From: Enterobacter phage phiKDA1
Sequence record: NC_027980.1
Reading direction: 5' to 3' (one strand)
Length of the DNA stretch: 43,804 bases
Below, piece by piece: positions 424 through 43,804 of the stretch. The notes below the pieces were generated by a model. That model searched no databases and was not told the origin of the DNA. It saw only the letters and a program-made list of their open reading frames with translations. Positions within the stretch are counted from its first letter, which is position 1, and the number at the start of each line of letters is the position of its first letter. A program made the translations under genes and the position numbers.

Positions 424-511
424 TTAAGGTACAGAGTGCTAAGCTCAGTGTTAGCTAAGGGATACACCCAGCTAACACTATACATATAATATAGGAGATA
501 ATTGAGACACT

Positions 512-1225
512 ATGCCTGAGACAATAAAGAGGGCTAAGAGAACTGTTCAGGGAGTACGCTGCAATGGCTACCTGGTACATGGAGAGTTCTACCTGACTAA
601 GCAGGAGGCTTATACTGCTGCCGGGATAGATAAGCCAGTGCGTAAGGATAAGCTACCAGTATCAGCAGGTAACTGCATTGCGGTAGCTGATGCAGTACTA
701 AGGGAACCTGAGTTGCTACTATCCTGGGCTTATTCAGATACATTCACGAACGCGCACTACAGGGAGTTGAATATGTACCTGGATGGGCGTAGGGCTGGCT
801 ATGCCGGGCTTAAGACTAAGAGCCGTGCTGGTACAGTGCTGAACTGCGTAGAGGACGCTACAGCGTTCTGGAAGCAGCTTAAGCCCAGAGAGGATACTAA
901 GTACCGGGATAGAGCTTATAAGAATCCTACCTGGTGCGATGACAGGGGATGGGTAGAGCAGGAACCTCTGGATGCAGCAGCCTTAGCTATAGATGCTTAT
1001 ATGGATGCTGTACAGGCAGAGTGGGAGCAGCAGAACCAAGAGTATCTACAGGGCTTAAAGGCTCCGGTACTCAGTAAGGATGCGAGAGTATTGATACACA
1101 GAGGTTCAGAGGTAATTGAGTATATACCGGAAGTAGATACCGATACGGATAAGGTTACTAAGCCTAAGCGTAGGTGGACGCAGAGAGAGCTTTACAAGTG
1201 GGCTAAGCAGCATAACCTCTGCTAA
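512..1225 (+). CDS. Early hypothetical protein, 237 aa
   Basis: Long ORF preceded by the SD region ATAGGAGATAATTGAGAC. No recognisable domain. Confidence 0.75.
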   Translation: MPETIKRAKRTVQGVRCNGYLVHGEFYLTKQEAYTAAGIDKPVRKDKLPVSAGNCIAVADAVLREPELLLSWAYSDTFTNAHYRELNMYLDGRRAGYAGLKTKSRAGTVLNCVEDATAFWKQLKPREDTKYRDRAYKNPTWCDDRGWVEQEPLDAAALAIDAYMDAVQAEWEQQNQEYLQGLKAPVLSKDARVLIHRGSEVIEYIPEVDTDTDKVTKPKRRWTQRELYKWAKQHNLC

Positions 1226-1261
1226 CCCCTACAACACTATACAATAGGAGATAATTGAGAC

Positions 1262-1528
1262 ATGAACGCTGTAGCGTTAAAGAAAGGGTTACTGCATGTT
1301 TATGACTATATGCGGAAGCAAGCAGGTTCTTACCCGTCTTATGATACGTCCTTGCAGCTATGGGAAGGGTTGGGTAAGCCTAAGCGGATGCACTTGCTTG
1401 GGCTAGGGCTGGTTGAGTTCTATGTAGAGTTTAATCAGCTAAAGTATAGGGAGGTTTATCCGGATGCAGCAGAGTTTCTTGTTCGGTACTGTGTGCCTAG
1501 CGCCACTATGTATAATGCCCTAAAGTAA
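1262..1528 (+). CDS. Early hypothetical protein, 88 aa
   Basis: ORF preceded by a near-identical 29-bp leader/SD to that of gene 512. Confidence 0.7.
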   Translation: MNAVALKKGLLHVYDYMRKQAGSYPSYDTSLQLWEGLGKPKRMHLLGLGLVEFYVEFNQLKYREVYPDAAEFLVRYCVPSATMYNALK

Positions 1529-1602
1529 CCTATAGCTTACGTTGTATCAGGAAAGCGCTGCTAATGTGGTGCGGGTAGTGACATTAACTGAGGATGTTTA
1601 GG

Positions 1603-1770
1603 ATGCAGCAGAATAAGAACCCTACTCCAGATTACGAACTAGAGTCCGATTGGTTGACAAATCCTATATATTTCGACGAGGAGTGGATTATGGAAGGATT
1701 CTGTAGTACTTGCGGCAATAGCTGCTGCTACAGGGTTTGTCTTGCTTGTGGTGATTTTGACGCTAACTGA
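1603..1770 (+). CDS. Small Cys-rich protein, 55 aa (CSTCGNSCCYRVCLACG; zinc-ribbon-like)
   Basis: ATG with a GAGGA SD 8 nt upstream. Translated manually. Below the ORF-track cutoff. Confidence 0.35.
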   Translation: MQQNKNPTPDYELESDWLTNPIYFDEEWIMEGFCSTCGNSCCYRVCLACGDFDAN

Positions 1771-1814
1771 GGAGGTCCTATGGTTGGTTTCGGTGAAGGT
1801 TAAGTAATGCAGAG

Positions 1815-1847
1815 GGGAAGCACTAGCTGTACAGTGCTTCCCTTTTT
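1815..1847 (+). terminator. Rho-independent terminator (early terminator analog)
   Basis: Perfect 10-bp stem GGGAAGCACT/AGTGCTTCCC with an 8-nt loop, followed by TTTTT. Confidence 0.7.
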
Positions 1848-1877
1848 GCTTAATAGAGAATTATTTTAGAAAGTGTA

Positions 1878-1906
1878 TTGACATTCTGAACTGGGCCTAG
1901 TAGAGT
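1878..1906 (+). promoter_or_regulatory. Candidate sigma70 promoter: TTGACA, 17-bp spacer, TAGAGT
   Basis: Consensus -35 hexamer with a 17-bp spacer and a 4/6 -10, in the non-coding stretch just after the terminator. Confidence 0.35.
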
Positions 1907-2009
1907 TAACTACATCGAGAGGCAAGGAGCCGCCCGGTAACGGGGAGTAGCGCCAGGGCATACGAAACCTGGATAATCGATAAGAAGTAAGAAAGTTTAG
2001 AAATAAAGC

Positions 2010-2038
2010 TTGACAAGTACAGCAACACGAAGTAACTT
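2010..2038 (+). promoter_or_regulatory. Candidate sigma70 promoter: TTGACA, 17-bp spacer, TAACTT
   Basis: Consensus -35 with a weak -10, in the same non-coding region. Confidence 0.25.
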
Positions 2039-2075
2039 AGATAGCAAGCAAGGCGATTACTGAGTAAGTCGGGAG

Positions 2076-2303
2076 TTGGTACAGGGAGTACCTAGCAGCG
2101 ACTCTAAATATCTGCGAACTGGTCCGGTAAAGGGTATGGACCATGAAAGAAGATACCCTGAACGTTTCCGAGCGTCCCTGTCCTTACACAGGGGAATCGA
2201 TGAGAACCTACCCAATAACGGATGGTTCACTAAGAGAAGTTTCTTAGTTAAGTATCCTCATAGTGAGGGTGCAGAATTAAGACATTTACTAAGGAGTTTA
2301 TGA
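2076..2303 (+). CDS. Doubtful ORF, 75 aa, TTG start
   Basis: In the ORF track only. Lies in a region that also holds promoter-like elements. A strong SD for the next gene sits inside its 3' end. Confidence 0.25.
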   Translation: MVQGVPSSDSKYLRTGPVKGMDHERRYPERFRASLSLHRGIDENLPNNGWFTKRSFLVKYPHSEGAELRHLLRSL

Positions 2304-2467
2304 TGAAAGCACTGGCTGAAATGTATCGCCGGGAAGCGTTAGAACAAGCTGCATTATACCGAGCTAAAGCTGCTGCAACTGAGTATTCTGTAGCAGTAGC
2401 GGCGTGGGTATCTCTTGCCGAAAGGTCTGAGCGGGAAGCCTTTGTTTGGGAGTGTGCAGCCCGGTGA
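2300..2467 (+). CDS. Small hypothetical protein, 55 aa
   Basis: Perfect AAGGAG SD 5 nt upstream of ATGATG. Manual translation gives MMKALAEMYRREALEQ... Confidence 0.5.
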   Translation: MMKALAEMYRREALEQAALYRAKAAATEYSVAVAAWVSLAERSEREAFVWECAAR

Positions 2468-21098: not shown

Positions 21099-21524
21099 AT
21101 GAGCCAAACAAAGAAAACACTATATAATACTAGACTCTATAACTGGAATAACTCTAGTGATTATATAATTAATTTAGCTAAGGAGTTCCATATCTATGGT
21201 ATAGGTATGAAACTAGGTATGCCTGAGGAAGAACACTTCCAGAAGGTAGTGCAGGAACTACAAGGTGATTCTGTATTAGCTGTATTCAGCGGGGATGTAC
21301 CTGTAGGTGTAGTTTCTCTTAGTCCTACATTGTTCCAAAATAGCCATTATCCAGGGAAAGCTATGCTTACCGGATTCATAGTGGTGGAGTCTGGCTACAG
21401 TAAGGCCGGAGCTATGCTAATGCGCGACGCTAAACGCATCGCTAAAGAGAACGGTGCGGATTGGCTTATCGTGACTCGCGCTGTAAACGATACGGATTAT
21501 CTTCAAAGAGGATGGAAGTTATAA
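21099..21524 (+). CDS. GNAT-like acetyltransferase (tentative), 141 aa, AT-rich gene
   Basis: The stretch VGVVSL...GFIVVESGYSKAGAMLMRDAKRIAKENGADWLIV resembles the GNAT core. The local GC is visibly lower than the surrounding DNA. Confidence 0.45.
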   Translation: MSQTKKTLYNTRLYNWNNSSDYIINLAKEFHIYGIGMKLGMPEEEHFQKVVQELQGDSVLAVFSGDVPVGVVSLSPTLFQNSHYPGKAMLTGFIVVESGYSKAGAMLMRDAKRIAKENGADWLIVTRAVNDTDYLQRGWKL

Positions 21525-21793: not shown

Positions 21794-23362
21794 ATGCGTG
21801 GAACCAAAGAACCTTTAGCGGGGCTGTTCACTAAGTTGCAGGACAGCTCCTGCTTGACCGCTGCCGAAACCTTCGCGGAGTGGTCGCTCCCGACAGTCTT
21901 CACCAAGGACCTGTCCGGTATGGACGGTAAGCGCTCAGCGCTGCACCGGGACTACCAGAGCCTCGGCGCTATCCTGATTAACACCGCCAGTACCAAAGTG
22001 GTCAAATCGCTGTTCCCTCAAGGGGCCCCGTTCTTCCGCTTCGTAGACAGCGAGGAGCTGGCTGGCGTAGTTGGTGAGTTGGGTATTCAGGGAGAAGTGC
22101 CGAGCGTACAGGCAGAGATTGAGCTGGCTGCGTCGGCACAGGTCTACAAAGACGAGGAGTACGCTGCGAAGCTGCACGCTACGAAGCTTCTGATGGTTAC
22201 AGGGAATGCCCTGGAATACCGGGATAAGCAGCGTCAGCGCTCTCATATCTACAGCATCCGAGACTACGCGGTTAAGCGTAATGGTTCCGGCGATGTAATG
22301 CTGATTGTCCTGAAGGAGCGTATCTGCGTTGGGGACTTACCCGACGAGTACCGTATCCAGTACGACAACAAAGCCGATTACGAGGACCTGGAGCTGTACA
22401 CTGGTGTATGCCGCGAGGTGCGAGCAGGCGGTGCAGTAGTCTACAAGGTGTACCAGGAGGTTGATAATAAACCTGTTGGGGAGCCTAGCTACTACCCAGA
22501 GAAGCAGTGCCCGTACACAGTACTGGTCTGGAACCGCGTTAACTCTGAGCACTATGGTCGCGGCTTGGTTGAGGACTATGCTGGCGAGTTCGCCAGATTA
22601 TCCGAGCTGAGTAAAGCCCTGACACTGTACGAAGTCGAGGCTATGCGTTTCGTGAACATGTCTAACTCTGCATCCGGTGTAGATATTGATGCGTTCAACG
22701 AAGCTGCGGTCGGGGATATCATCCAGACGAATGCCCCTGCTGGTACTACTGGTCCAGGGGTGTGGGCCTACGAGGGTGGTGTCTACCAGAAGATTCAGGT
22801 CATGCAGGCTGAGATTGCCAGCATTGAGCAGCGGCTTGCTAGAGCGTTCATGTACGGCGGGAATATGCGCCAGGCAGAGCGTGTCACGGCGTATGAGATT
22901 CGTCAGAATGCTCAGGAGGCGCAGGAGGCTCTGGGGGATGCGTACAGTCAGCTAAGCAGTGTATGGCTTACTAAGCTGGCGTACCTGTACTGCCTGGAGC
23001 TGTATCCGCAGATGCAGCCTCTGTTGGACCTGCAAGCTATGACGCTGAATGTCATAGTAGGTACAGCAGCCTTGGCTAAGGCAGCTCAGAATGACCGTCT
23101 ACTGGAAGCTACGCAGTCCTTGCAGTTGATTGCGCCAGTGCTCTCGCAGCTTACTAAGCGCACCAACATGGATGCTTTGATTGACACTGTATTTGATAGC
23201 TTCGGCATTAACAGCAGCAGCTTCTTCTACACGGAAGAGCAGCTCAAGCAATTGCAAGAGCAGGAAGATACGCGAGCAGCTCAAGCAGCGCAGCAGCAGC
23301 AACAGGCTCTCCAAGCCGCCGACCCCAATCAAACGGCTCAGCAACTAGGCTTAATCGCATAA
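21794..23362 (+). CDS. Head-tail connector (portal) protein
   Basis: 522 aa, first large gene of the late block, AAGGAG SD. Size and position match T7 gp8. Confidence 0.85.
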   Translation: MRGTKEPLAGLFTKLQDSSCLTAAETFAEWSLPTVFTKDLSGMDGKRSALHRDYQSLGAILINTASTKVVKSLFPQGAPFFRFVDSEELAGVVGELGIQGEVPSVQAEIELAASAQVYKDEEYAAKLHATKLLMVTGNALEYRDKQRQRSHIYSIRDYAVKRNGSGDVMLIVLKERICVGDLPDEYRIQYDNKADYEDLELYTGVCREVRAGGAVVYKVYQEVDNKPVGEPSYYPEKQCPYTVLVWNRVNSEHYGRGLVEDYAGEFARLSELSKALTLYEVEAMRFVNMSNSASGVDIDAFNEAAVGDIIQTNAPAGTTGPGVWAYEGGVYQKIQVMQAEIASIEQRLARAFMYGGNMRQAERVTAYEIRQNAQEAQEALGDAYSQLSSVWLTKLAYLYCLELYPQMQPLLDLQAMTLNVIVGTAALAKAAQNDRLLEATQSLQLIAPVLSQLTKRTNMDALIDTVFDSFGINSSSFFYTEEQLKQLQEQEDTRAAQAAQQQQQALQAADPNQTAQQLGLIA

Positions 23363-23377
23363 TAGAACGAGGTTAAT

Positions 23378-24235
23378 GTGACAGACACTACTACCGCCGC
23401 AGCAGCGGCACCAGAGACAACGGTACTAGAGAACGTAGGTGGCCCTAAGATTCCTGGCGGTCCTGGCGGTCCTAAAGCCCCGAACATGCAGGGCGTACCG
23501 CAGGAACAAGCAGCTACGGCAGCAGCCCCAACACCGGGTGCCGAGCCTCCCGCCTTTGATGTGGAGGCGTTAGCTGCGGCTCTGGCTAAGCACGGTAAGC
23601 CTGAAGCAGCAGAGCCTCAAGCAGAAGCTCAAACAGAACTCGCAGAAACAGGGAACCCGGCTATCGATGCTGGTATCGCCATGTTGAAGCAGGTGTCAAA
23701 GCTCAATGATGCGGACATGGTTCGCGCTATTGGGAAAGCAGTGGAGTATAACGACCCGAATCTCATTGACTCGGCCTTCATCAAAGAGCGCTTTGGTGAG
23801 CACGCACAGTACGCTGAGCTGCTTGCAAAGGCATACCTCGATGATCAGATAGGCCAGGCTCAGCGGGCGGTTACAGCGGCGTACGACCTCGTAGGCGGCA
23901 AGGAGAACTGGGAAACAGCATCGCAACTGTTCAACGCGAAAGCGCCTGAGCATGTACGCGCTGCTGCCCGTGCCCTTGCTAACTCTGGGGATGTAACTGG
24001 CGCTGCTAAACTGGTTGTTGAGACTGTACAAGGTCTGGGTTTAATCGCTAAGGAAGCTGGTATCCTCAAGGGGGGTGCTGCTCTGGACGGTGCATTGTCC
24101 GCAGCAGACTTCTCTAAAGAGTACCAAGCACTTCGCAAAGAGGCCGGGAATCGTAGCTTAGAATCTCCTAAGTTCTCCCAGCGCTATCAGAATCTGTTAT
24201 CACGCCGACAAGCTGGAAAGGCCAAGGGTGTATAA
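23378..24235 (+). CDS. Scaffolding protein
   Basis: Acidic, Ala/Glu-rich 285-aa protein between the portal and capsid genes. GTG start with a GAGG SD. Confidence 0.7.
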   Translation: MTDTTTAAAAAPETTVLENVGGPKIPGGPGGPKAPNMQGVPQEQAATAAAPTPGAEPPAFDVEALAAALAKHGKPEAAEPQAEAQTELAETGNPAIDAGIAMLKQVSKLNDADMVRAIGKAVEYNDPNLIDSAFIKERFGEHAQYAELLAKAYLDDQIGQAQRAVTAAYDLVGGKENWETASQLFNAKAPEHVRAAARALANSGDVTGAAKLVVETVQGLGLIAKEAGILKGGAALDGALSAADFSKEYQALRKEAGNRSLESPKFSQRYQNLLSRRQAGKAKGV

Positions 24236-24241
24236 TTATCT

Positions 24242-24718
24242 GTGGAGATTAATCTCATGCAAGCACTTATCGAACGTTTAGAGTATCAGCCGGACGGGCG
24301 TCTGATTAATAAGGCTACATCAGACTATGCAGACAAGTACACAAACAACTGGGGCTATCGCCGCGTATCGTGGGATAGAGGAAACCTGGGGCGAGTACGA
24401 GAGTACGCGCATCGTTTGGTGTGGGTTATGCATAACGGGGACATCCCCGATGGTATGATGGTGGATCATATTAATTTGGACAAGTCCGACAACCGCATTG
24501 AGAATCTGCGCCTGGTTAATAAATCAGGGAATGCGCAGAATGTTAAGCGGAAGGGCTACTGGCTTGATAAGCGCTCCGGTAAATGGCGTGCTCAGATTAA
24601 AATCGATGGTAAGACTATTGGGCTAGGATTGCACGAGACAGAGTCTCTGGCTAGACAAGTCTACTTAAACGCAAAGCGTGAGCTGCATGAGTTCGCGTCT
24701 GAAACTGTACTTAAATAA
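24242..24718 (+). CDS. HNH-AP2 homing endonuclease, copy 3
   Basis: Motif AHRLVWVMHNGDIPDGMMVDHINLDKSDNRIENLRLV. Paralogous to copies 2 and 4. Inserted between the scaffold and capsid genes. Confidence 0.8.
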   Translation: MEINLMQALIERLEYQPDGRLINKATSDYADKYTNNWGYRRVSWDRGNLGRVREYAHRLVWVMHNGDIPDGMMVDHINLDKSDNRIENLRLVNKSGNAQNVKRKGYWLDKRSGKWRAQIKIDGKTIGLGLHETESLARQVYLNAKRELHEFASETVLK

Positions 24719-24729
24719 GGAACTAAAAC

Positions 24730-25725
24730 ATGGCCAACACAGCATATGCTGGTAACTTAACTAAGCCCCACTGGGGCGGCGCTGCCTCTGACGTAGATAT
24801 CCATCTTGAGGTCTACCAGAACGAGGTCGATACACGTTTCCAGTATCAGGCTATCTTCCTGGGACTGTCTACCCAGCGTTCTACCGCTGACCGCTCTAAC
24901 ACGTATCGTATTGACCGTCTGAACACCAGCACCGTCAAGGGTCGTACTTCTGGCGTAGCGCTGGACCCAACCCCAGTACGTAACGACAAGATGATTATCG
25001 TTGTCGATACCGTGCTGTACATCCGTAACCCTATCGACTACCAGGACGATTGGACTGCGCCGGACTTCCTGACCGAGATGGGTCAGAACAACGGCTCTGA
25101 GTTCGCAGAGACCTTCGACCAGGCGCACCTGATTCAGCTCATCAAGGGCCGCTCTTGGGTTGCCCCTGCGCACCTTAAGCCTGCGTTCAACGACGGTATC
25201 GAGATTCCTGTTACTGTAGACGCTACCCCTGCTGACCAGGCTGCTCGTGAAGCTAACGCCGAGGCTATTAACCTCGCGCATAAAGCTGGTATTGACGAGC
25301 TGATTAAGCGTAAGGTTCCGCTGATGGATATGGTTACTCTGGTTGACGTAGATACCTACTCTATGCTGCTGGAGCATCCGAAGCTGTTCGACCGTGAATT
25401 CGGTATGACCAACGATGATGGTTACAAGAACCGCCGCGTAGTTAAGATGAACGGTATTCCGGTTGTAGAGTGCACTGAGTTCCCTACTACCGCTGGTGCG
25501 CACCCACTGGGTTCTGCGTTCACTGTAACTGCGGACGACGCTAACTGCCGTATGGTTACGTTCAGCAAGAGCAAGACCCTGGTAACTGTCGAAGCTAAGC
25601 CATTCACCTCCCGTATCTGGGATGATGAGCTGAACTTCGCGAACGTACTGGACTGCTACGCTATGTACACCGTTGGTGAGCGTCGTCCTGACACTGCCGC
25701 TGTAGTTAAATTCACCTTCTCTTAA
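24730..25725 (+). CDS. Major capsid protein
   Basis: 331 aa with highly biased codons. Position and size match T7 gp10A. Followed by a strong terminator. Confidence 0.85.
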   Translation: MANTAYAGNLTKPHWGGAASDVDIHLEVYQNEVDTRFQYQAIFLGLSTQRSTADRSNTYRIDRLNTSTVKGRTSGVALDPTPVRNDKMIIVVDTVLYIRNPIDYQDDWTAPDFLTEMGQNNGSEFAETFDQAHLIQLIKGRSWVAPAHLKPAFNDGIEIPVTVDATPADQAAREANAEAINLAHKAGIDELIKRKVPLMDMVTLVDVDTYSMLLEHPKLFDREFGMTNDDGYKNRRVVKMNGIPVVECTEFPTTAGAHPLGSAFTVTADDANCRMVTFSKSKTLVTVEAKPFTSRIWDDELNFANVLDCYAMYTVGERRPDTAAVVKFTFS

Positions 25726-36243: not shown

Positions 36244-36726
36244 ATGTCAAATCGGGCAGTTGTAGTGTACGATGAACGTAGCCCTAGCTGCCTCGTTTAT
36301 ACGCATAGTCGATTCAAATCTAAAGTAGGCAGACCTGCTGGAGCGGTAAATGCGTGTGGTTATTATGACCTAAGCTCTGCTCCTGTGGGTTGCCGCAGTC
36401 GCTTGGCTCACCGTATCGTGTGGGAGCTGCACTACGGAGAAATCCCAGAAGGATTAGAGATTGACCACATAGATGGTAATCCGGGGAATAACGTTATAAG
36501 TAACCTTCGACTAGCTGATGATAATCTTCAAATGCATAATCGCAAGGTTAGAAAGGATAAACTAAACGACTTGCCGAAGGGTGTGTTTCCCAACGGAAAG
36601 CGATACATGGGTCGGGTAACTGTACATGGTACTCGTATATCTAAAACATTTGCTACCGTAGAGGATGCTGCCGCATGGGTTCGTAGCGTACGTGAGTATG
36701 CTGCTGGCGCAAGCGTCCGGCATTAA
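36244..36726 (+). CDS. HNH-AP2 homing endonuclease, copy 4
   Basis: Motif AHRIVWELHYGEIPEGLEIDHIDGNPGNNVISNLRL. Its 3' end overlaps the start region of the tail-fiber gene. Confidence 0.8.
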   Translation: MSNRAVVVYDERSPSCLVYTHSRFKSKVGRPAGAVNACGYYDLSSAPVGCRSRLAHRIVWELHYGEIPEGLEIDHIDGNPGNNVISNLRLADDNLQMHNRKVRKDKLNDLPKGVFPNGKRYMGRVTVHGTRISKTFATVEDAAAWVRSVREYAAGASVRH

Positions 36727-38245
36727 GGAGGTCATTATCGCCTTTTCCTGGGAAGAACTAACATACCCGGCTGGCACCACTAGCGTTAACGTGAACATTG
36801 ATTATCTGGACAAGTCCTATATTTACTTGTATCTGGATAATGTACTGACTACTGCCTATACCTGGGCCAGTGACACTGTTATTCAGTTAGACAGTGCACT
36901 GGCTGCCAGTACGAATGTGCTTATTGTGCGCCGTACTGATAAGGAGTTTCTGTACATAATGTTTGCAGAGGGTGCCGCGTTCATCCGTGAAAACATAGAT
37001 ACACAGAACACGCAGTTCCTGCATCTTGCTCAGGAGCTAACCGAGGGGCGCTCTGTTGAGGGCTTCTACGGAGACTTGAGCATGAACGGGTTCCGCATCA
37101 CCAACTTAGGTGCTGGGGTTAATCCTGGAGATGCGGTTAACAAGGGGCAGTTTGACGTAGTAGACCAGCGTGTAACTAGTCTAGAACAGACGTGGGTAAC
37201 CGCTACTACTAGCTATCCTTGGTACACTACTACTATCGCCGAGACTGATGTACTGGACCCACCCTTTAACTTCAGTAAAGCAGCCCTTTACATTATGGGC
37301 GTATGCCAGACTCCCGGTTATAGCTACGAGGTGGTAGATAACCAGATTATGTTGGCAGACCCTGTACCTGCTGGTACACACATCTTTGCCCGTCTAGGCG
37401 AGGATGTAGGTCTAGACCATAACTATGCTACCGCAGACCAGTTAGCTACCGCTATCAGCCAAGCGCAGCTTGAGCATAACACGCTACAGGCGGGTATCGA
37501 CAGTAAGGCGGCTAAGGGTGCGAACTCTGATATCACGAGCTTGAGCGGGCTTACAACGCCGCTCAGCACAGCTCAGGGTGGTACAGGTAGTGATACTGGG
37601 GTAGCACCTAAAGCAACTATTCTGGAAACTGCGCGCACCGTGCAGGTGAACTTAGCAACCACCGCCGCAGCTAGCTTTGATGGCTCTGCTAACATCTCCC
37701 CAGGTGTAACGGGGGTGCTACCAGTCGTCAACGGCGGCACAGGCGGTACTACCCCAGCAGGTGCCCGTGGTAATCTAGGAGCCGCCGCCAGCGGTTCTAA
37801 CTCTGACATTACCGCGTTAACCGCGTTGAGCGGGGGTATCACTGGCCTGACTACAGGTACTGCTGCTGCTACTGGTATCGTAGGACAAGAGCTGTCTGCG
37901 TCGTCTGGTACTGCGGTATCCCTAACGTCAGGGACGCTGACCAACATAGCGAGTATCAGCCTACCTGCTGGGGATTGGGAGTTGGAGAGTGCTCTGCGTG
38001 TAACTAACGCAGGTAACGTCACGCTCCTGAACTTTGGGGTTAGCGCTACTTCAGCTACCCTGCCTACAGATTGGTGGGACCGTTACAACATTACCACAAC
38101 TCTAGCAGCAGGTACTTCTACTCGTCAGGGTATGTCCCGCAGGGTTCTGCTCAGCACCACCACTACGCTGTACCTAGTAGCGCAGGCTACCTTCACCAGT
38201 ACTTGTACAGCAGATGGTTATATTAGAGCACGGAGGATGCGTTAA
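36698..38245 (+). CDS. Tail fiber protein (gp17-like N-terminal adaptor domain plus NSDIT-repeat region)
   Basis: The N-terminus EVIIAFSWEELTY...LIVRRTDKEFLY aligns with the T7 gp17 N-terminal domain. The internal motif xNSDITxLS occurs twice. The start is uncertain: nearest in-frame ATG is at 36698, GTG at 36692, and the track uses 36665. Confidence 0.75.
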   Translation: MLLAQASGIKEVIIAFSWEELTYPAGTTSVNVNIDYLDKSYIYLYLDNVLTTAYTWASDTVIQLDSALAASTNVLIVRRTDKEFLYIMFAEGAAFIRENIDTQNTQFLHLAQELTEGRSVEGFYGDLSMNGFRITNLGAGVNPGDAVNKGQFDVVDQRVTSLEQTWVTATTSYPWYTTTIAETDVLDPPFNFSKAALYIMGVCQTPGYSYEVVDNQIMLADPVPAGTHIFARLGEDVGLDHNYATADQLATAISQAQLEHNTLQAGIDSKAAKGANSDITSLSGLTTPLSTAQGGTGSDTGVAPKATILETARTVQVNLATTAAASFDGSANISPGVTGVLPVVNGGTGGTTPAGARGNLGAAASGSNSDITALTALSGGITGLTTGTAAATGIVGQELSASSGTAVSLTSGTLTNIASISLPAGDWELESALRVTNAGNVTLLNFGVSATSATLPTDWWDRYNITTTLAAGTSTRQGMSRRVLLSTTTTLYLVAQATFTSTCTADGYIRARRMR

Positions 38246-38545: not shown

Positions 38546-40396
38546 ATGATAAGTCAAACTACACTGAGCAGACTCAAGCTCATCAGTGCCCGTACAACGG
38601 TAATGAATGATAGCCCAAGGACTATCCCGAAGGACCAGCGTGAGGAAGTAGCGCTGATGATGGCTGTGACTCTGAAGGATTTCCGAGAGTTCGCATATTT
38701 AGGTATGAAATTCCTCGGATTTAACCTTACGGAGATGCAAGCCGATATAGCAGAGTTTATGCAGAAAGGCCCGCGCAAGCGCATGGTCGCTGCTCAGCGT
38801 GGTGAGGCTAAGTCTACCCTGGCTGCACTGTACGCAGTGTGGCGTCTGATACAGGACCAGAGCTGTCGTATCCTGATTGTATCCGGTGGTGAGAAGCAGG
38901 CGTCTGAAGTAGCTACGCTGGTCATTCGTATGATTGAGACGTGGCCTTTGCTGTGCTACCTCAAGGCCGACCCGGCTCGTGGGGACCGTACCTCTTATGA
39001 GGGCTATGACGTGCACTGCGACCTGAAGCCTCTGGATAAGTCCGCTAGCATTGCGTGCGTAGGTATTACTGCGCAGTTGCAGGGTAAGCGTGCGGACCTG
39101 CTTATCCCGGATGATATTGAGACTACGAAGAACGGCCTGACCCAGACGATGCGTGAGCAGTTGCTCATGATATCCAAGGACTTCGCCGCTATCTGTACGC
39201 ACGGGGATACGCTGTATCTGGGGACACCTCAGACTAAGGATAGTATCTACAAGACCCTGCCTGGGCGTGGCTTTGAAGTACGCGTATGGCCCGGTCGCAT
39301 ACCAAACGAGGAGATGCAGGAACGTTATGGCGATACACTTGCTCCTTATATCTGTGAGCTTATTGAGCGCGGGTATAAACGTACCGGATTCGGATTAGAT
39401 GGAACTTTAGGAGAATGCGCAGACAAGGGGCGCTACGATGAGGATGCGCTGATTGAGAAGGAACTGGACTTCGGTCCAGAAGGCTTCCAGTTGCAGTACA
39501 TGCTCGACACTACTATGTCTGATGCAATGAGAACAAGGATTAAGCTCAGCGATTGCATGGTCTACTCAGGTTCTCATGACGCAGCACCGGACCGTCTAAG
39601 CTACATTGCGGACAAGCGCTACCTCTACACAGAGGAACACGAGGGTATCCGTGGGCAGTTGCTGTACCAGCCAGCTAGCTACGGCGAGCTGATGCTTCCG
39701 TATCAGCACAAGCTCATGGTGATAGACCCAGCGGGTTGTGGTGGGGATGAGGTCTCCTACGCGGCGGGTGGGGCAGCGAACTCGTACTTGCACCTGTTCT
39801 CTGTGGGCGGGTTCCAGGGCGGTATCAGCACTGAGAATATCGACAAGCTCATCGACCTGGCTATTGAGCTAGGTATCTCGGACTTGTTCATTGAGAGCAA
39901 TATGGGGCATGGTACAGTAGAGATGCTGTTCATGAACCGACTACGTGAGCGTAAGATTCCCGGTATCGGCGTTAGAGGGGGCTACAACACCTCACAGAAG
40001 GAGAAGCGTATCATTGATACTATCTCCCCAGTGACTCGTCGACATCGCCTTGTAGTGCATTCTAGAGCGCTTACAGACGACATTCAGAGCTGCATGGCCT
40101 ATAGCCGTGACAAGCGCTGGTTGTACAGCGCGTTCCAGCAGCTCCAAAGCATCACCTACGACCGTGGTAGCTTAGCAAAGGACGACCGTGCCGATGCCGT
40201 AGCTATGCTAGTAGCAGAACTCAACGGCTTCCTGGTTGAGGATGAGAAGGTTACTGCTGAGAAAGAGCAGCAGAAGCAAGCTCAGAAGTTCATGGATAAC
40301 CCTATGGACTGGAAGCAAAGCATGGTTGCCCCGCGCAGCCGTGGTACTCAGGCACGGCTGGACCGTGGCTTAACTAAACGGAGAGGAAGACGCTAA
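38546..40396 (+). CDS. Terminase large subunit (gp19-like)
   Basis: 616 aa. Size and position match T7 gp19. ATPase-like segments are visible in the N-terminal half. Confidence 0.8.
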   Translation: MISQTTLSRLKLISARTTVMNDSPRTIPKDQREEVALMMAVTLKDFREFAYLGMKFLGFNLTEMQADIAEFMQKGPRKRMVAAQRGEAKSTLAALYAVWRLIQDQSCRILIVSGGEKQASEVATLVIRMIETWPLLCYLKADPARGDRTSYEGYDVHCDLKPLDKSASIACVGITAQLQGKRADLLIPDDIETTKNGLTQTMREQLLMISKDFAAICTHGDTLYLGTPQTKDSIYKTLPGRGFEVRVWPGRIPNEEMQERYGDTLAPYICELIERGYKRTGFGLDGTLGECADKGRYDEDALIEKELDFGPEGFQLQYMLDTTMSDAMRTRIKLSDCMVYSGSHDAAPDRLSYIADKRYLYTEEHEGIRGQLLYQPASYGELMLPYQHKLMVIDPAGCGGDEVSYAAGGAANSYLHLFSVGGFQGGISTENIDKLIDLAIELGISDLFIESNMGHGTVEMLFMNRLRERKIPGIGVRGGYNTSQKEKRIIDTISPVTRRHRLVVHSRALTDDIQSCMAYSRDKRWLYSAFQQLQSITYDRGSLAKDDRADAVAMLVAELNGFLVEDEKVTAEKEQQKQAQKFMDNPMDWKQSMVAPRSRGTQARLDRGLTKRRGRR

Positions 40397-40683
40397 TGCC
40401 ATTTGCATCAGCTACACTAGCGCAGCGCCAAGCTGTGCGAGACGCGAGCATTAACTGCAACAAAGCCATTGAACTGGCGCACGACACTGGGCCGTTGAAT
40501 ACACTAGGCCCTGTAGTAGATACGAAGGCGGCTGCATTAGTAGCAGCGCTTAGTGCAGCAGGTACTGGGACTGGTGGGGACTTTGCTATCGTTACTGATG
40601 GACAAACCGCTACTGCTTCCGGTACTGGGACTACGGCAACCTTCACCGTGACTGACGGTGTTGTTACTGTTACACTATCTTAA
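40396..40683 (+). CDS. Hypothetical protein, 95 aa, Gly/Thr-rich C-terminal half
   Basis: ORF with an ATGA-type overlap onto the terminase stop. Confidence 0.5.
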   Translation: MPFASATLAQRQAVRDASINCNKAIELAHDTGPLNTLGPVVDTKAAALVAALSAAGTGTGGDFAIVTDGQTATASGTGTTATFTVTDGVVTVTLS

Positions 40684-40693
40684 GGAGAATTAA

Positions 40694-41295: not shown

Positions 41296-41527
41296 TGTAC
41301 CTGCTGACCTGGCTACCCGAGCGGGAGTAATGGCTACGGGCGTAGCTACTAGCGGCGGTTGGTTAGCAGAGGTTATGTCCTGGAACTGGAGTGCTATTAG
41401 TTTCATCACTGCAACTATATGCGCTATTCTTACCGCTGCATGGAATGCTTATATAGGGCACAAGCGCCTGAAGCTACAGGAAGAAGCTGTACGAAAAGGT
41501 ATACCATTCTATGAGCTTAAGAAATAA
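41279..41527 (+). CDS. Holin (pinholin-like, two hydrophobic segments)
   Basis: 82 aa. Hydrophobic segments AGVMATGVATSGGWLAEV and WSAISFITATICAILTAAW, followed by a charged C-terminus. The start is taken at the internal ATG 41279, not the track start 41234. The gene overlaps the endolysin start. Confidence 0.5.
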   Translation: MIRLSDVPADLATRAGVMATGVATSGGWLAEVMSWNWSAISFITATICAILTAAWNAYIGHKRLKLQEEAVRKGIPFYELKK

Positions 41528-42053
41528 GGTTGTGGGTGCCCTTGCCGGGGCATCTCTCTTGGGTGGCGGTATCACTGCCGTTATCCAGAACAATGAGGGC
41601 TACAGCAGCACTGCTTACCGAGATAGTGCTGGAGTCCCCACTATCTGCTACGGTGAAACTAAGGGTGTGCAGATGGGCCAGAAACGCTCCCTGAGCGATT
41701 GTCAGAAGCAACTGATACAATCAGCAGGGGAGCACGCTAAAGCGCTTGTAGGGCTTCCTGAGAGCCTTCCTGATGTGGTTCTGCTAGGCAGTCTAGATAT
41801 GGCCTACAACGTAGGTATCTATGGCTTCAGCAACAGCACCGCTAAGCGCAAGCTCATGCAAGGTGATTACCGCGCTGCGGGTCAAGCCGTGCTGCAATGG
41901 AAGTACATTACCTTGAATGGCAAGAAGTATGATTGCAGCATCAAAGGGAACAAGGTCTGCTATGGCTTATGGAAACGCCGCTTATGGCAGAGCAAGGCTA
42001 TTGGTAATGAGTTTAAATCTGTGCAGGAGGCTGTAGCAGCCCTGCCTAAGTAA
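41511..42053 (+). CDS. SAR endolysin (GH24 T4-lysozyme family)
   Basis: Catalytic E-8-D-5-T triad in NEGYSSTAYRDSAGVPT. N-terminal Gly/Ala-rich weakly hydrophobic SAR segment VVGALAGASLLGGGITAVI. Confidence 0.85.
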   Translation: MSLRNKVVGALAGASLLGGGITAVIQNNEGYSSTAYRDSAGVPTICYGETKGVQMGQKRSLSDCQKQLIQSAGEHAKALVGLPESLPDVVLLGSLDMAYNVGIYGFSNSTAKRKLMQGDYRAAGQAVLQWKYITLNGKKYDCSIKGNKVCYGLWKRRLWQSKAIGNEFKSVQEAVAALPK

Positions 42054-42063
42054 GGAGTAGAAG

Positions 42064-43446
42064 ATGGCGTTGGTACGTAATATTCAAGTACAACTAGATG
42101 CTTCAGAGATAGATTATAAGTTAAGGGCTGTAGCGGGTGCAGTAAGTCGCACAGTGCAGGACAAGCTTGATGATTTTGTTAGTGTGCTGGACTTCGGAGC
42201 TAAGGGTGACGGAGTTACTGACGATTCTGAAGCATTTCGCAAGGCGGGGGCTACTGGTAAGAAAGTGTTTATCCCTGATGTGTCAGGTAATGGTTCTGGA
42301 TGTATTTACAAAGTAAAAAATGTATATATCAAAAAACCCCTACTTTTCGGAGAGCACATTGGCGTTGAGATACAACCGGTTGCCGCTGGCGATGAAATGT
42401 TTTATTTCGGAGACCCCGACCAGCCATCCACCTACATCATTAATGGCGCGAGGATAGAAAACCTCACCTTTTCATGCCCAGCAGCGAATGATGGAGAGTA
42501 TCCTATAGCCGTACGCTGCCGTCAACAGCAGCAAATGGAAGTATTCGGATGCACATTCTACCGATTAACATTTGAGCTTATAGACTACAGATATGTCACC
42601 TTTAGGAAAATTCGTGGAATAGGTTCAATGTTCTATTCAAACAGGACTCAACCAAATGGTGTTGACTGGGCAGACGCATTAGTTATCTCGGACAGTTTTA
42701 TCGCCTATACTTCCCGCATCGAGGTCCGCAACTCAGTAGGATTTCAAATGCGAAATACCTATTGCGCAAATCCGACATCTACTCCATGCTTGCTATTGGG
42801 ATATGACGATTGGGCAAAACCGAGCCATGGGACGTGCGAACTGACTGACGTAACAATTGAAGGTGTTACGTCACTCAACAATTGCAACCTTTTTGTTTTT
42901 ATTGTAAACGGTCATATGGGTGCATTCCAGGGGCATGGCTTAACACTTAGGGATTGCTTCTCTGTTAATTGCGTAAATACCGAGTTCCATTACAGTAGAG
43001 ACTTCGGTGTATACATGAATGCCTGTAAAAAATCATCATTCACTAATACTCGGTTTACAAACAACGGTGAGGGCGGTATCAGGATTGGTGGTGATACACA
43101 GTACGTTGCATTCGCTGGCTGCCTGTTTGGGGAGGGGGGGATTGCTAATGATGGCCCAACTCAAAAACGGGGCATTAACATTGAGGATACTAGTGGTGGC
43201 GTGACGGTGTTGTCTTCTGTATTCGATGGAAACAGCGAAGTTAATATAGGTGGAGACTCAAGTAAGTACAGGGCGCTGGCATGTCAAGGGGTTCCTGATA
43301 CTGTAATTGTTAGTGGTGGTGCAACATCAGAAAGACCCGCATCTCCAAAAGCAGGGCAACAATTTTATGATGCGAGCTTAGGAATGCCAATCTACTGGAA
43401 CAGTGTAACGAATACATGGAAGAACGCCGTAGGTGCCAATGTCTAA
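42064..43446 (+). CDS. Right-handed beta-helix tailspike / depolymerase-like protein (pectate-lyase superfamily)
   Basis: Motif VSVLDFGAKGDGVTDDSEAF at residues 40-60. 460 aa. Visibly lower GC than the rest of the genome. Last gene before the right DTR. Confidence 0.7.
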   Translation: MALVRNIQVQLDASEIDYKLRAVAGAVSRTVQDKLDDFVSVLDFGAKGDGVTDDSEAFRKAGATGKKVFIPDVSGNGSGCIYKVKNVYIKKPLLFGEHIGVEIQPVAAGDEMFYFGDPDQPSTYIINGARIENLTFSCPAANDGEYPIAVRCRQQQQMEVFGCTFYRLTFELIDYRYVTFRKIRGIGSMFYSNRTQPNGVDWADALVISDSFIAYTSRIEVRNSVGFQMRNTYCANPTSTPCLLLGYDDWAKPSHGTCELTDVTIEGVTSLNNCNLFVFIVNGHMGAFQGHGLTLRDCFSVNCVNTEFHYSRDFGVYMNACKKSSFTNTRFTNNGEGGIRIGGDTQYVAFAGCLFGEGGIANDGPTQKRGINIEDTSGGVTVLSSVFDGNSEVNIGGDSSKYRALACQGVPDTVIVSGGATSERPASPKAGQQFYDASLGMPIYWNSVTNTWKNAVGANV

Positions 43447-43537
43447 TCAGAGACAGTCAATCACGGTGCAGGAGTCTTACTGAGGGGTGCTCGTGTAAAC
43501 CTGTTAGCTAAAAATGTTATACTTACGCGAACCCCTC

Positions 43538-43804
43538 CCTCACCCTCAACGCCCCTCGTTTCCCCCATAGGGGGTGCCTCAGCCATAACTAAGGCCGGGG
43601 CGGGGTGGGGGCCTGTGCCTGCGTAGGGATAACCTGGGGCCTCTACGAGGCTCTGGGAGCTTCTCTAAGCGCTTCTACCGGATAGCCAATGGGATAGCAT
43701 AGGGATAGCCCTGCGATAGCTATGAGGATGGCTTAGCGTGGCTCTGTGTAGCGCTGGGGTGATAGCTCTGGGCTGTGCTTAGTACGGCGTGGAGGTGGGC
43801 GCAG
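43538..43804. repeat. Right direct terminal repeat
   Basis: Identical to 1-267. A possible longer extent cannot be seen because the window ends here. Confidence 0.9.

What the first reader, a model, noticed from the sequence alone, without database searches (positions are those of the whole stretch)
42064..43446. AT-richer tailspike/depolymerase module as the terminal gene, with only a short N-terminal peptide
The last gene encodes a pectate-lyase-superfamily beta-helix, marked by the VSVLDFGAKGDGVTDDSEAF motif. Its GC content is visibly lower than the genome average. It has only about 35 residues ahead of the helix, so no gp17-type particle-anchoring domain. It probably docks onto the primary tail fiber (36698-38245). 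It is likely the horizontally swapped host-range determinant, such as a capsule or O-antigen depolymerase. Placement after the lysis genes and next to the DTR fits a late-acquired, exchangeable receptor-binding module.
Basis: partly seen in the sequence, partly recalled or inferred. Interest (0 to 1): 0.55.

Follow-up and report, generated by a model that had tools for sequence, protein, structure and literature searches.

The report
Swappable anchorless tailspike gene at genome end
The last gene of this small Enterobacter-type phage encodes a sugar-cutting tailspike with no anchor domain of its own, a well-known arrangement in phages of the KP34 group, so the finding is correct but ordinary.

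Summary
ORF 42064-43446 (+, 460 aa) is the last gene before a 267-bp terminal repeat. Its GC is 44.8% against 51.9% elsewhere, mostly from third codon positions. The window is a complete Koutsourovirus-like (Slopekvirinae, KP34-group) podophage genome.

The protein is a right-handed beta-helix tailspike. It is homologous over residues 22-460 to the catalytic domain of CBA120 TSP3, an LPS-cleaving glycosidase. Both TSP3 catalytic carboxylates are kept (D204, D262). Only about 29 disordered residues precede the fold, starting MALVRNI, a variant of the MALxxLV peptide described for KP34-type second receptor-binding proteins.

Cultured relatives (~90% nt) lose similarity just after the endolysin stop. 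A metagenomic sibling keeps the first 39 codons at 97% and then diverges. The same body (83-88% nt, 41.5-45% GC everywhere) occurs behind at least five other N-termini in T7-like and other podophage contigs and in Enterobacter and Salmonella prophages. In the Enterobacter prophage it sits next to a gtrABC-like cassette.

It is most likely an O-antigen endoglycosidase docked on the primary fibre, whose N-terminal half matches HRP29 gp44. The docking, the substrate and the activity are inferred, not shown. It is a new member of a known kind, of low interest.

The parts
42064..43446 (+). Tailspike (second receptor-binding protein) gene, 460 aa
   Evidence: ORF. PHROG 7173 tail spike, E 5e-99. CBA120 TSP3 homology, E 2e-29. 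AF2 model with pLDDT 88. Foldseek top hit 6nw9, TM 0.78.
42052..42057 (+). Shine-Dalgarno AAGGAG, 6 nt before the ATG and overlapping the endolysin stop codon
   Evidence: Read directly from the sequence. This points to co-transcription and translation with the lysis cassette (inference).
42064..42150 (+). N-terminal leader, residues 1-29 (MALVRNIQVQLDASEIDYKLRAVAGAVSR). The heptapeptide MALVRNI at 42064-42084 is the presumed docking peptide.
   Evidence: pLDDT is below 50 for residues 1-29. The stretch is 97% nt identical in sibling contig L004, whose body is only ~30% identical. Positions 1-4 and 7 match the MALxxLV consensus seen in 25 distinct last-gene N-termini (PMC6872550).
42148..42180 (+). 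5' junction RTVQDKLDDFV (residues 29-39), a conserved linker and 5' recombination boundary of the body cassette
   Evidence: Conserved behind every N-terminal architecture and in CBA120 TSP3. DNA similarity to L004 ends at 42180. Similarity to L005, L006 and L008 starts at 42151-42160.
42181..43332 (+). Right-handed beta-helix catalytic and receptor-binding body (residues 40-423). Putative catalytic Asp204 is at 42673-42675 and Asp262 at 42847-42849.
   Evidence: Pfam PF13229 over residues 273-391. Strand pattern of the model. TSP3 E362 aligns to D204 and D426 to D262, both conserved in all relatives of at least 56% identity (PMC6517402).
43333..43446 (+). C-terminal small domain (residues 424-460, RPASPKAGQQFYD..LG.PIYWN...TWKNA.G), equivalent to the TSP3 D4 beta-prism, and the 3' boundary of the cassette
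   Evidence: Aligns to TSP3 residues ~590-627 (D4 defined in PMC6517402). Conserved even in the ~30%-identity bodies P0096 and P0097. DNA similarity to L004 resumes at 43261.
36698..38245 (+). Primary tail fibre (first RBP) and presumed docking partner. The true start may be ATC/ATT at 36734-36739.
   Evidence: PF03906 T7 tail-fibre N-terminal domain. Residues 15-265 match HRP29 gp44 (8es4, E 2e-99) and residues 142-515 match PhiM1 gp47 (8vbx, E 8e-139). Alignment with relatives.
37205..37402 (+). Conserved domain in the fibre (residues ~170-235, SYPWYT...FARLGED), the candidate platform for the spike
   Evidence: Nearly invariant between the window, three Koutsourovirus relatives and HRP29 gp44. 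It lies at the position where Latka et al. predicted a T4gp10-like fragment in KP34 gp49 (PMC6872550). hhalign to the CBA120 TSP2 N-terminus is weak (prob 21%, E 0.001) and to T4 gp10 not significant.
41511..42053 (+). Endolysin, the conserved upstream flank of the cassette
   Evidence: PF00959. About 90% nt identity to relatives up to 42055-42058.
43538..43804 (.). Right copy of the 267-bp direct terminal repeat. The conserved downstream flank starts at about 43484.

Best explanation
The gene encodes the phage's second receptor-binding protein. It is probably a trimeric beta-helix tailspike that recognises and cleaves a surface polysaccharide of an Enterobacter cloacae-complex host. The substrate is most likely the O-antigen, cut by an acid/base glycoside-hydrolase mechanism like that of CBA120 TSP3, with Asp204 and Asp262 as the carboxylate pair.

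The protein has no folded anchor. A short, intrinsically disordered N-terminal leader beginning MALVRNI is thought to plug into a conserved domain of the primary tail fibre (36698-38245). That fibre is itself fixed to the tail by a T7 gp17-type N-terminal domain. Each of the six fibres would then carry a side-mounted spike, as in HRP29, PhiM1 and KP34.

Host range is changed by recombination at two nested levels. The whole gene can be replaced between the endolysin stop and about 40 nt past the spike stop. The body alone can be replaced between the conserved RTVQDKLDDFV linker and the conserved C-terminal small domain. The low GC belongs to the circulating module, not to this genome.

Shown here: the gene, its composition, fold homology, retained catalytic residues, the cassette boundaries and the spread of the module. 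Inferred: docking, trimer state, enzymatic activity, substrate and host.
For: Fold and enzyme family:
- phmmer to TSP3 (6nw9/5w6f), E 2e-29, query 22-460 against chain 184-627.
- AF2 pLDDT 88. Foldseek top hits are TSP3, TM 0.78; the next hit is at TM 0.42.
- E362 aligns to D204 and D426 to D262, conserved in the close family. The catalytic roles come from PMC6517402.

Anchorless architecture:
-.

Cassette boundaries:
-.

Same body (56-92% aa) behind other N-termini:
- PF18668 (Enterobacter prophages)
- PF03906 (T7-like contig)
- PF09008 (P22 head-binding, Salmonella prophages)
- two further unassigned types
- another short leader in a 45.7-kb podophage contig

O-antigen clue:
- TSP3 degrades LPS (PMC6517402).
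- P22-type head-binding fusions occur in Salmonella.
- The Enterobacter prophage copy is followed by GtrA, a GT2 and a 492-aa protein, which looks like a gtrABC O-antigen glucosylation cassette.

Docking:
- 25 distinct last-gene N-termini in fibre-related podophages share M-A-L-(V/T)-x-L-(V/I) and nothing beyond it, matching PMC6872550.
- The fibre N-terminal half matches HRP29 gp44. gp44/gp52 was handled as a purified complex (PMC11654681).
- PhiM1 fibre gp47 'adapts trimers of spike protein' (PMC11440229), and the window fibre is homologous to it.

Host:
- The closest genomes are Enterobacter and Salmonella phages.
- The closest spike bodies are in E. hormaechei genomes, in hundreds of contigs.
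Against: - No direct evidence of virion incorporation or of a fibre-spike contact in this phage.
- Position 6 of the heptapeptide is Asn, not the consensus Leu. Only one other locus, L018, shares this.
- The T4gp10-like nature of the fibre domain could not be confirmed.
- The E362 equivalent is Asp, not Glu. It rests on alignment in a poorly conserved stretch: HMMER placed it one residue off, at A205, while MAFFT gives D204.
- Only a monomer was modelled, so the intersubunit active site is untested.
- The HRP29 gp52 chain is not in the PDB, so no atomic model of such a docking peptide is available.
- The capsule-versus-O-antigen call rests on context only.
Confidence: 0.8

Rival explanations
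1. The architecture and docking are the same, but the substrate is a capsular or exopolysaccharide (K-antigen or colanic-acid type) rather than the O-antigen. The protein would then be a capsule depolymerase, as in Klebsiella KP34 gp57.
For: The homologous locus in Klebsiella members of the subfamily encodes capsule depolymerases (PMC6872550, PMC8262889). Beta-helix spikes of both specificities share this fold.
Against: The only characterised homologue, TSP3, acts on LPS (PMC6517402). The body is fused to P22-type head-binding domains in Salmonella prophages. In Enterobacter it lies beside a gtrABC-like O-antigen modification cassette. No homologue from a Klebsiella capsule phage was found at full length.
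Confidence: 0.2
2. The spike is part of the virion but binds directly to the tail (adaptor or nozzle), or to another protein, and not to the primary fibre.
For: The leader is very short and is poorly conserved beyond four to seven residues, even among phages whose fibre N-terminal half is 93-96% identical. The gp10-like docking domain was not confirmed.
Against: HRP29 gp44/gp52 behaves as a complex (PMC11654681). The PhiM1 reconstruction shows a fibre/spike assembly (PMC11440229). The window fibre keeps the domain that is invariant between these phages.
Confidence: 0.12
3. The product is a free, soluble enzyme released at lysis. It would strip polysaccharide from neighbouring cells or debris and would not be a structural receptor-binding protein. 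This would explain its place after the lysis genes and its lack of an anchor.
For: It sits directly behind the endolysin with a shared ribosome-binding region and has no folded anchor.
Against: The N-terminal MAL-type peptide is conserved across 25 otherwise unrelated bodies at this locus, which would be unnecessary for a free enzyme. The equivalent proteins in HRP29 and PhiM1 are virion-associated (PMC11654681, PMC11440229).
Confidence: 0.04
4. The spike binds its receptor but is catalytically inactive.
For: The first carboxylate is Asp rather than Glu, and TSP3 His334, which hydrogen-bonds Glu362, is Arg here. A 38%-identity subgroup has lost both carboxylates (V and N).
Against: Both acidic positions are strictly kept in all relatives of at least 56% identity across several phage types, which suggests selection for catalysis.
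Confidence: 0.08

Closest known systems
Second RBP of KP34-group podophages (Slopekvirinae): KP34 gp57, HRP29/Buco gp52, the PhiM1 spike; 'anchor-branch' model of Latka et al. 2019
   Same: It is the last gene after the endolysin and has no anchor domain. It has a short conserved N-terminal peptide of MAL type and a variable beta-helix body. The partner first RBP has a T7 gp17-type N-terminus, and the window fibre is homologous to HRP29 gp44 and PhiM1 gp47 (PMC6872550).
   Different: The heptapeptide is MALVRNI, with Asn at the usually Leu position 6. The body is TSP3-like and probably specific for O-antigen and Enterobacter, rather than a Klebsiella capsule depolymerase or an Sf6-like endorhamnosidase. 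The first RBP here is a full-length 500-aa fibre, as in PhiM1, not a truncated adaptor as in KP34 or HRP29.
CBA120 TSP3 (ORF212), PDB 6NW9/5W6F
   Same: The beta-helix D3 and C-terminal D4 are homologous end to end (29% identity, E 2e-29, TM 0.78). The linker RTVQDKLDDFV is the same. Both catalytic carboxylate positions are acidic.
   Different: The D1/D2 head domain and the neck helix (TSP3 residues 1-168) are missing, replaced by a ~21-residue leader. Glu362 is Asp, and His334 is Arg. The virion context differs: podophage fibre against myophage branched baseplate complex.
K1E/K1-5/SP6 tailspikes that dock on adaptor gp37 through 7- or 11-residue N-terminal peptides (as summarised in PMC6872550)
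   Same: The principle of an anchorless spike held by a very short N-terminal peptide is the same. Window residues 10-87 are 41% identical to the N-terminal region of the K1E/K1-5 endosialidases. The same body occurs in a 45.7-kb podophage contig that has a separate 306-aa T7-tail-domain protein upstream.
   Different: The leader sequence differs. The platform in those phages is a dedicated adaptor that carries two spikes, not a functional fibre.
Enterobacter hormaechei prophage tailspikes (594 aa, PF18668 N-terminus)
   Same: The receptor-binding body is 89-92% aa and 86% nt identical and shows the same low GC.
   Different: They have a folded TSP1/gp66-type N-terminal domain. They sit in a myovirus-like tail module behind a Gp10_C protein and are followed by a gtrABC-like cassette.

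Membership tests
KP34-type (Slopekvirinae) second receptor-binding protein | Encoded as the last late gene, downstream of the endolysin and separated from the first RBP by the terminase and lysis genes | tested here: met
   Gene order is fibre, TerS, TerL, small ORFs, spanin, holin, endolysin, spike, DTR. HRP29 and about 50 related loci have the same order.
KP34-type (Slopekvirinae) second receptor-binding protein | Conserved N-terminal heptapeptide MALxxLV and no anchor domain | tested here: met
   MALVRNI matches M1, A2, L3 and a hydrophobic residue at position 7. Position 6 is N, where 15 of 25 types have L. There is no PF03906, PF18668 or PF09008 match. Residues 1-29 are disordered. The match is to a variant of the motif, not the exact consensus.
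KP34-type (Slopekvirinae) second receptor-binding protein | Partner first RBP with a T7 gp17-like N-terminal anchor | tested here: met
   PF03906, E 1.6e-14, in the fibre at 36698-38245. Homology to T7 gp17 N-terminal structures.
KP34-type (Slopekvirinae) second receptor-binding protein | T4gp10-like fragment in the first RBP that serves as the docking site | tested here: inconclusive
   The conserved domain at fibre residues ~170-235 lies where it is expected. hhalign to the CBA120 TSP2 N-terminal assembly region gives prob 21%, E 0.001. hhalign to T4 gp10 gives prob below 1%. The profiles were shallow.
KP34-type (Slopekvirinae) second receptor-binding protein | Physical attachment of the spike to the fibre in the virion | not testable with these tools
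   Supported only by analogy to HRP29 gp44/gp52 and PhiM1 (PMC11654681, PMC11440229).
CBA120 TSP3-type tailspike glycosidase | Right-handed parallel beta-helix catalytic domain (D3) followed by a small C-terminal D4 domain | tested here: met
CBA120 TSP3-type tailspike glycosidase | Two essential carboxylates (Glu362 and Asp426) | tested here: met
   D204 and D262 by MAFFT alignment, conserved in all relatives of at least 56% identity. HMMER placed E362 opposite A205, next to D204, so the first position carries some alignment uncertainty.
CBA120 TSP3-type tailspike glycosidase | Homotrimer with the active site in the cleft between subunits | not testable with these tools
   Only a monomer could be modelled.
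CBA120 TSP3-type tailspike glycosidase | N-terminal head domain (D1/D2) and alpha-helical neck | tested here: not met
   The alignment starts at TSP3 residue 184, and the query has only 21 residues before it. The protein is therefore a homologue of the catalytic domain only, not a full TSP3-type spike.
Pectate lyase (enzymatic sense) | Significant match to a pectate-lyase family, and lyase catalytic residues | tested here: not met
   PF12708 covers only residues 38-62 at 24.6 bits, below the 27-bit cut-off. The best structural and sequence relatives are glycoside hydrolases. Lyase catalytic residues were not examined. The resemblance is at the fold level only.
T7 gp17-type directly anchored tail fibre or spike | PF03906 N-terminal domain in the same polypeptide | tested here: not met
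   Absent here. It is present in homologue P0004, from a T7-like contig that carries the same body.

The most novel reading that the evidence does not exclude
The whole 29-residue leader, and not just a heptapeptide, may be a lineage-specific docking element. The leader is MALV-x-NI-QVQLDASEIDYKL..., with Asn at the position that is Leu in the KP34 consensus. It is kept at 97% nt identity between phages whose spike bodies are only ~30% identical. It would pair with its own fibre variant and form an orthogonal 'plug' distinct from MALxxLV. If so, fibre-spike pairing would have a specificity code that limits which cassettes can be captured, and that code could be used for plug-and-play host-range engineering.
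Probability: 0.12. Interest if true: 0.35.

Novelty: new member of a known kind. Interest (0 to 1): 0.2.

Why it matters
The practical value is modest. The gene is the probable host-range determinant of an Enterobacter-type podophage. Its body is almost the same as spikes carried by many E. hormaechei prophages, so it could point to the susceptible O-serotype. The cassette boundaries are mapped to within a few codons, which gives ready splice points for swapping specificities in this phage group. It does not reveal a new mechanism. Anchorless second spikes, short docking peptides and cross-family shuffling of beta-helix bodies are all already described.

Tried and rejected
1. Searching the cultured-phage collection with the first 40 residues found only the linker part (residues 22-40) and never the leader. 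The leader is known only from metagenomic contigs.
2. I looked for an atomic model of a docked leader. HRP29 gp52 is not deposited as a chain, and the HRP29 paper is not in the held library.
3. I tried to confirm the T4gp10-like docking domain by hhalign. I used a 5-sequence and then a 56-sequence fibre profile against T4 gp10 and the CBA120 TSP2 N-terminus. The results were weak or not significant.
4. A profile search of the PDB with the fibre alignment returned no gp10 or G7C gp66 hit.
5. The simple promoter and terminator scan around the gene found nothing above shuffled expectation.
6. I considered that low GC might only reflect beta-helix amino-acid composition. This was rejected, because GC2 is unchanged and the drop is at GC3.
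7. I considered that the window equals IMG/VR contig 3300045988_016375 (43,806 bp). This was rejected, because its last gene has a different N-terminus and is 691 aa.
8. A fusion construct to co-fold the fibre and the leader could not be submitted under the tool's input rule.

Full report
**What the window is.** The 43,804-bp window carries an exact 267-bp direct repeat at both ends (1-267 = 43538-43804). It is about 90% identical at the DNA level, over most of its late region, to Salmonella phage KKP 3828 and to Enterobacter phages SDFMU_Pec, SDFMU_EhYP and Entb_48. The first two of these records are classified in Koutsourovirus (Autographiviridae, Slopekvirinae), the subfamily that also holds Klebsiella phage KP34 and Shigella phage HRP29/Buco. 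It is therefore a complete podophage genome of a known group.

**The observation.**
- ORF 42064-43446 (+) encodes 460 aa.
- It starts 10 nt after the endolysin stop, behind an AAGGAG Shine-Dalgarno sequence.
- It is the last gene before the right terminal repeat.
- The quoted motif is residues 39-58.
- Its GC content is 44.8% against 51.9% for the rest of the genome. Only 0.12% of equal-length windows are as low, and it ties with an early-region stretch (981-2363) for the genome minimum.
- The deficit lies mainly at synonymous positions. GC3 is 0.403 against 0.554 +/- 0.048 in the other ORFs of at least 150 aa. GC1 is 0.508 against 0.583, and GC2 is unchanged. It is therefore a compositional signature and not a by-product of beta-helix amino-acid usage.
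- No ORF longer than 61 aa overlaps the gene on either strand.

**What the protein is.**
- Pfam gives Beta_helix (residues 273-391) and a sub-threshold PF12708 match at residues 38-62.
- PHROGs gives a tail-spike family over residues 37-455, aligned to profile positions 214-626. The first 213 profile positions have no counterpart.
- Against the PDB, the only strong hit is CBA120 tailspike protein 3 (6NW9/5W6F), E 2e-29, query 22-460 against chain 184-627.
- An AlphaFold2 model built on 32 homologues has mean pLDDT 88, an uninterrupted beta-helix from residue ~38, and pLDDT below 50 for residues 1-29.
- Foldseek ranks TSP3 first at TM 0.78. The next fold, the AlgE4 epimerase, is at TM 0.42.
- TSP3 is an LPS-degrading glycosidase. 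Its activity needs Glu362 and Asp426, which lie in an intersubunit cleft, and does not need Asp383 (PMC6517402).
- In a family alignment these map to Asp204, Asp262 and Gly226 of the window protein. Both acidic positions are kept in every relative of at least 56% identity.
- HMMER placed Glu362 one residue off, opposite Ala205, so the first assignment carries some alignment uncertainty.
- The C-terminal 37 residues align with the TSP3 D4 domain.
- The TSP3 head domain and neck (residues 1-168) are absent.
- 'Pectate-lyase superfamily' is therefore right at the fold level, but the nearest characterised enzyme is a hydrolase.

**Evidence of exchange.** Two nested boundaries are visible.
- Against the cultured Koutsouroviruses, similarity runs to 42055-42058, just past the endolysin stop. 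It resumes at 43484-43493, about 40 nt after the spike stop. KKP 3828, Entb_48 and SDFMU_Pec each carry an unrelated gene at this position.
- Against a metagenomic sibling contig (L004, same lysis cassette), identity is 97% through 42180, which is codon 39. It is then lost until 43261. The encoded protein (P0096) has the same first ~40 residues, but its beta-helix is only ~30% identical.
- Conversely, the body from 42151/42160 to 43383/43446 is 83-88% identical at the DNA level in three unrelated settings:
  - a 45.7-kb podophage contig with a separate 306-aa T7-tail-domain protein;
  - a T7-like contig in which the body is fused to a PF03906 anchor;
  - Enterobacter hormaechei prophages in which it follows a PF18668 domain.
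- Protein searches add Salmonella prophage versions with a P22 head-binding domain (73-77% identity), Citrobacter versions (66%) and two further N-terminal types.
- The break points coincide with two conserved segments: RTVQDKLDDFV (residues 29-39, also present in TSP3) and the C-terminal small domain.
- Wherever it sits, the module has 41.5-45% GC, even inside genomic stretches of 45-51% GC.
- The last genes of KKP 3828, Entb_48 and L004 are also 3-5.5 points below their flanks.
- What is not 'late-acquired' is the locus. A spike gene after the endolysin is present in the related podophages examined.

**How it is probably attached.**
- Latka et al. (PMC6872550) described exactly this arrangement for KP34-type phages. 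The first RBP has a T7 gp17-like N-terminus and a predicted T4gp10-like fragment. The second RBP, encoded after the endolysin, shares only the heptapeptide MALxxLV.
- I recovered 65 loci related through the fibre and extracted the first large ORF after the terminase. Among 25 distinct N-terminal types, position 2 is Ala in 18, position 3 is Leu in 21, position 6 is Leu in 15 and position 7 is Val or Ile in 19. Nothing is conserved beyond that.
- The window's MALVRNI fits except for Asn6, a variant shared only with one close relative (L018).
- Residues 15-265 of the window's primary fibre match HRP29 gp44 (PDB 8ES4, E 2e-99). Residues 142-515 match the PhiM1 fibre gp47 (8VBX, E 8e-139).
- HRP29 gp44/gp52 has been handled as a purified tail-protein complex (PMC11654681).
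- The PhiM1 reconstruction describes fibres that 'adapt trimers of spike protein' (PMC11440229).
- A domain at fibre residues ~170-235 is almost invariant from the window to HRP29. It lies where the gp10-like fragment was predicted.
- My own hhalign tests of that resemblance were weak: CBA120 TSP2 N-terminus prob 21%, T4 gp10 not significant. I record that feature as inconclusive.
- Docking onto the fibre is therefore well supported by analogy but is not shown for this phage.
- Relatives whose fibre N-terminal half is 93-96% identical have leaders that differ after residue 4. This argues that only a very short element is required. The 97% conservation of the whole leader between the window and L004 may simply reflect recent common ancestry.

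**Substrate and host.**
- The closest bodies (89-92% aa) sit in hundreds of E. hormaechei and E. cloacae-complex contigs. The closest phage genomes infect Enterobacter or Salmonella. An Enterobacter cloacae-complex host is therefore likely.
- O-antigen is favoured over capsule for three reasons:
  - TSP3 acts on LPS (PMC6517402).
  - The body is found on P22-type head-binding domains in Salmonella.
  - The Enterobacter prophage copy is immediately followed by a GtrA-family protein, a GT2 glycosyltransferase and a 492-aa protein. This is the layout of gtrABC O-antigen glucosylation cassettes, which temperate phages that use the O-antigen as receptor commonly carry. That general point is established knowledge and was not tested here.
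- This remains contextual evidence.

**Verdict.** The three refinements are hydrolase rather than lyase, O-antigen favoured over capsule, and a conserved locus with exchangeable content. The feature is a further example of the published KP34/HRP29/PhiM1 'fibre plus side-mounted anchorless spike' design and of the well-known shuffling of tailspike bodies. It is a new member of a known kind, with interest 0.2.

Noticed in passing
window 36244-36740: An HNH endonuclease gene (PF13392) sits exactly where relatives have the tail-fibre ATG. The ATG that follows the internal-virion-protein stop now starts the HNH gene. After the HNH stop comes AAGGAGG, then 5 nt, then ATC-GCC-TTT-TCC-TGG, which reads (I)AFSW where relatives read MAFSW. 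The fibre therefore either uses a non-ATG (ATC/ATT) start or begins at an upstream ATG (36698 or 36665) inside the HNH gene, which would add 14-25 residues to the tail-binding N-terminus.
   Followed up: partly
window 40396-40683: A 95-aa Ala/Thr/Gly-rich ORF with no Pfam or PHROG match lies in a ~280-bp stretch (40411-40690). This stretch is missing from all four cultured relatives and from sibling contig L004, where the flanks are contiguous.
   Followed up: partly
window 36698-38245: The primary fibre looks mosaic. Its N-terminal half is closest to the HRP29 adaptor-like gp44, and its distal two-thirds are closest to the PhiM1 fibre gp47. Entb_48 has a different, longer distal part.
   Followed up: partly
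window 981-2363 and 21099-21524: Two other low-GC patches were seen. The early region has 44.9% GC, tying with the spike gene. A 141-aa ORF has 41.3% GC and GC3 of 0.38. Neither was examined further.
   Followed up: no
window 485-530 and 1238-1283: A 46-nt direct repeat (74% identity) contains TATA(A/C)(T/A)ATAGGAGATAATTGAGACA just upstream of early ORFs. It may be a repeated early promoter or ribosome-binding element.
   Followed up: no
L006/L007 9873-12624: In E. hormaechei prophages, the 594-aa spike that carries this body is followed on the opposite strand by GtrA, a GT2 and a 492-aa protein, which looks like a gtrABC O-antigen modification cassette. In L007 the 492-aa gene appears disrupted and a reverse-transcriptase gene lies nearby.
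   Followed up: partly
L002 (SDFMU_Pec) 23324-25252: The GenBank record has no annotated gene after the endolysin, but a long ORF (MQELVRDNAYGVRYKS...GAVGDGVADD...) runs to the end of the record. This is presumably its unannotated or truncated spike gene.
   Followed up: partly
window 41816-41948 (endolysin): The endolysin is itself mosaic. KKP 3828 and Entb_48 have 200-206-aa versions with an inserted segment and lose DNA similarity across this stretch. SDFMU_Pec and L004 match the window's 180-aa form.
   Followed up: no
proteins P0069-P0095: An Enterobacter/Salmonella prophage subgroup at 37-40% identity has Val and Asn in place of the two catalytic Asp residues, and its alignment to the window protein ends well before the conserved C-terminal domain. 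It may have a different active site or be a binding-only spike.
   Followed up: no
window 42079-42105 and L012 5274-5300: The motif N-[IV]-Q-[AV]-Q-L-D-[AS] occurs in the window spike leader (residues 6-13) and in HRP29 gp52 (residues 24-31). It could be a shared contact element or chance.
   Followed up: no
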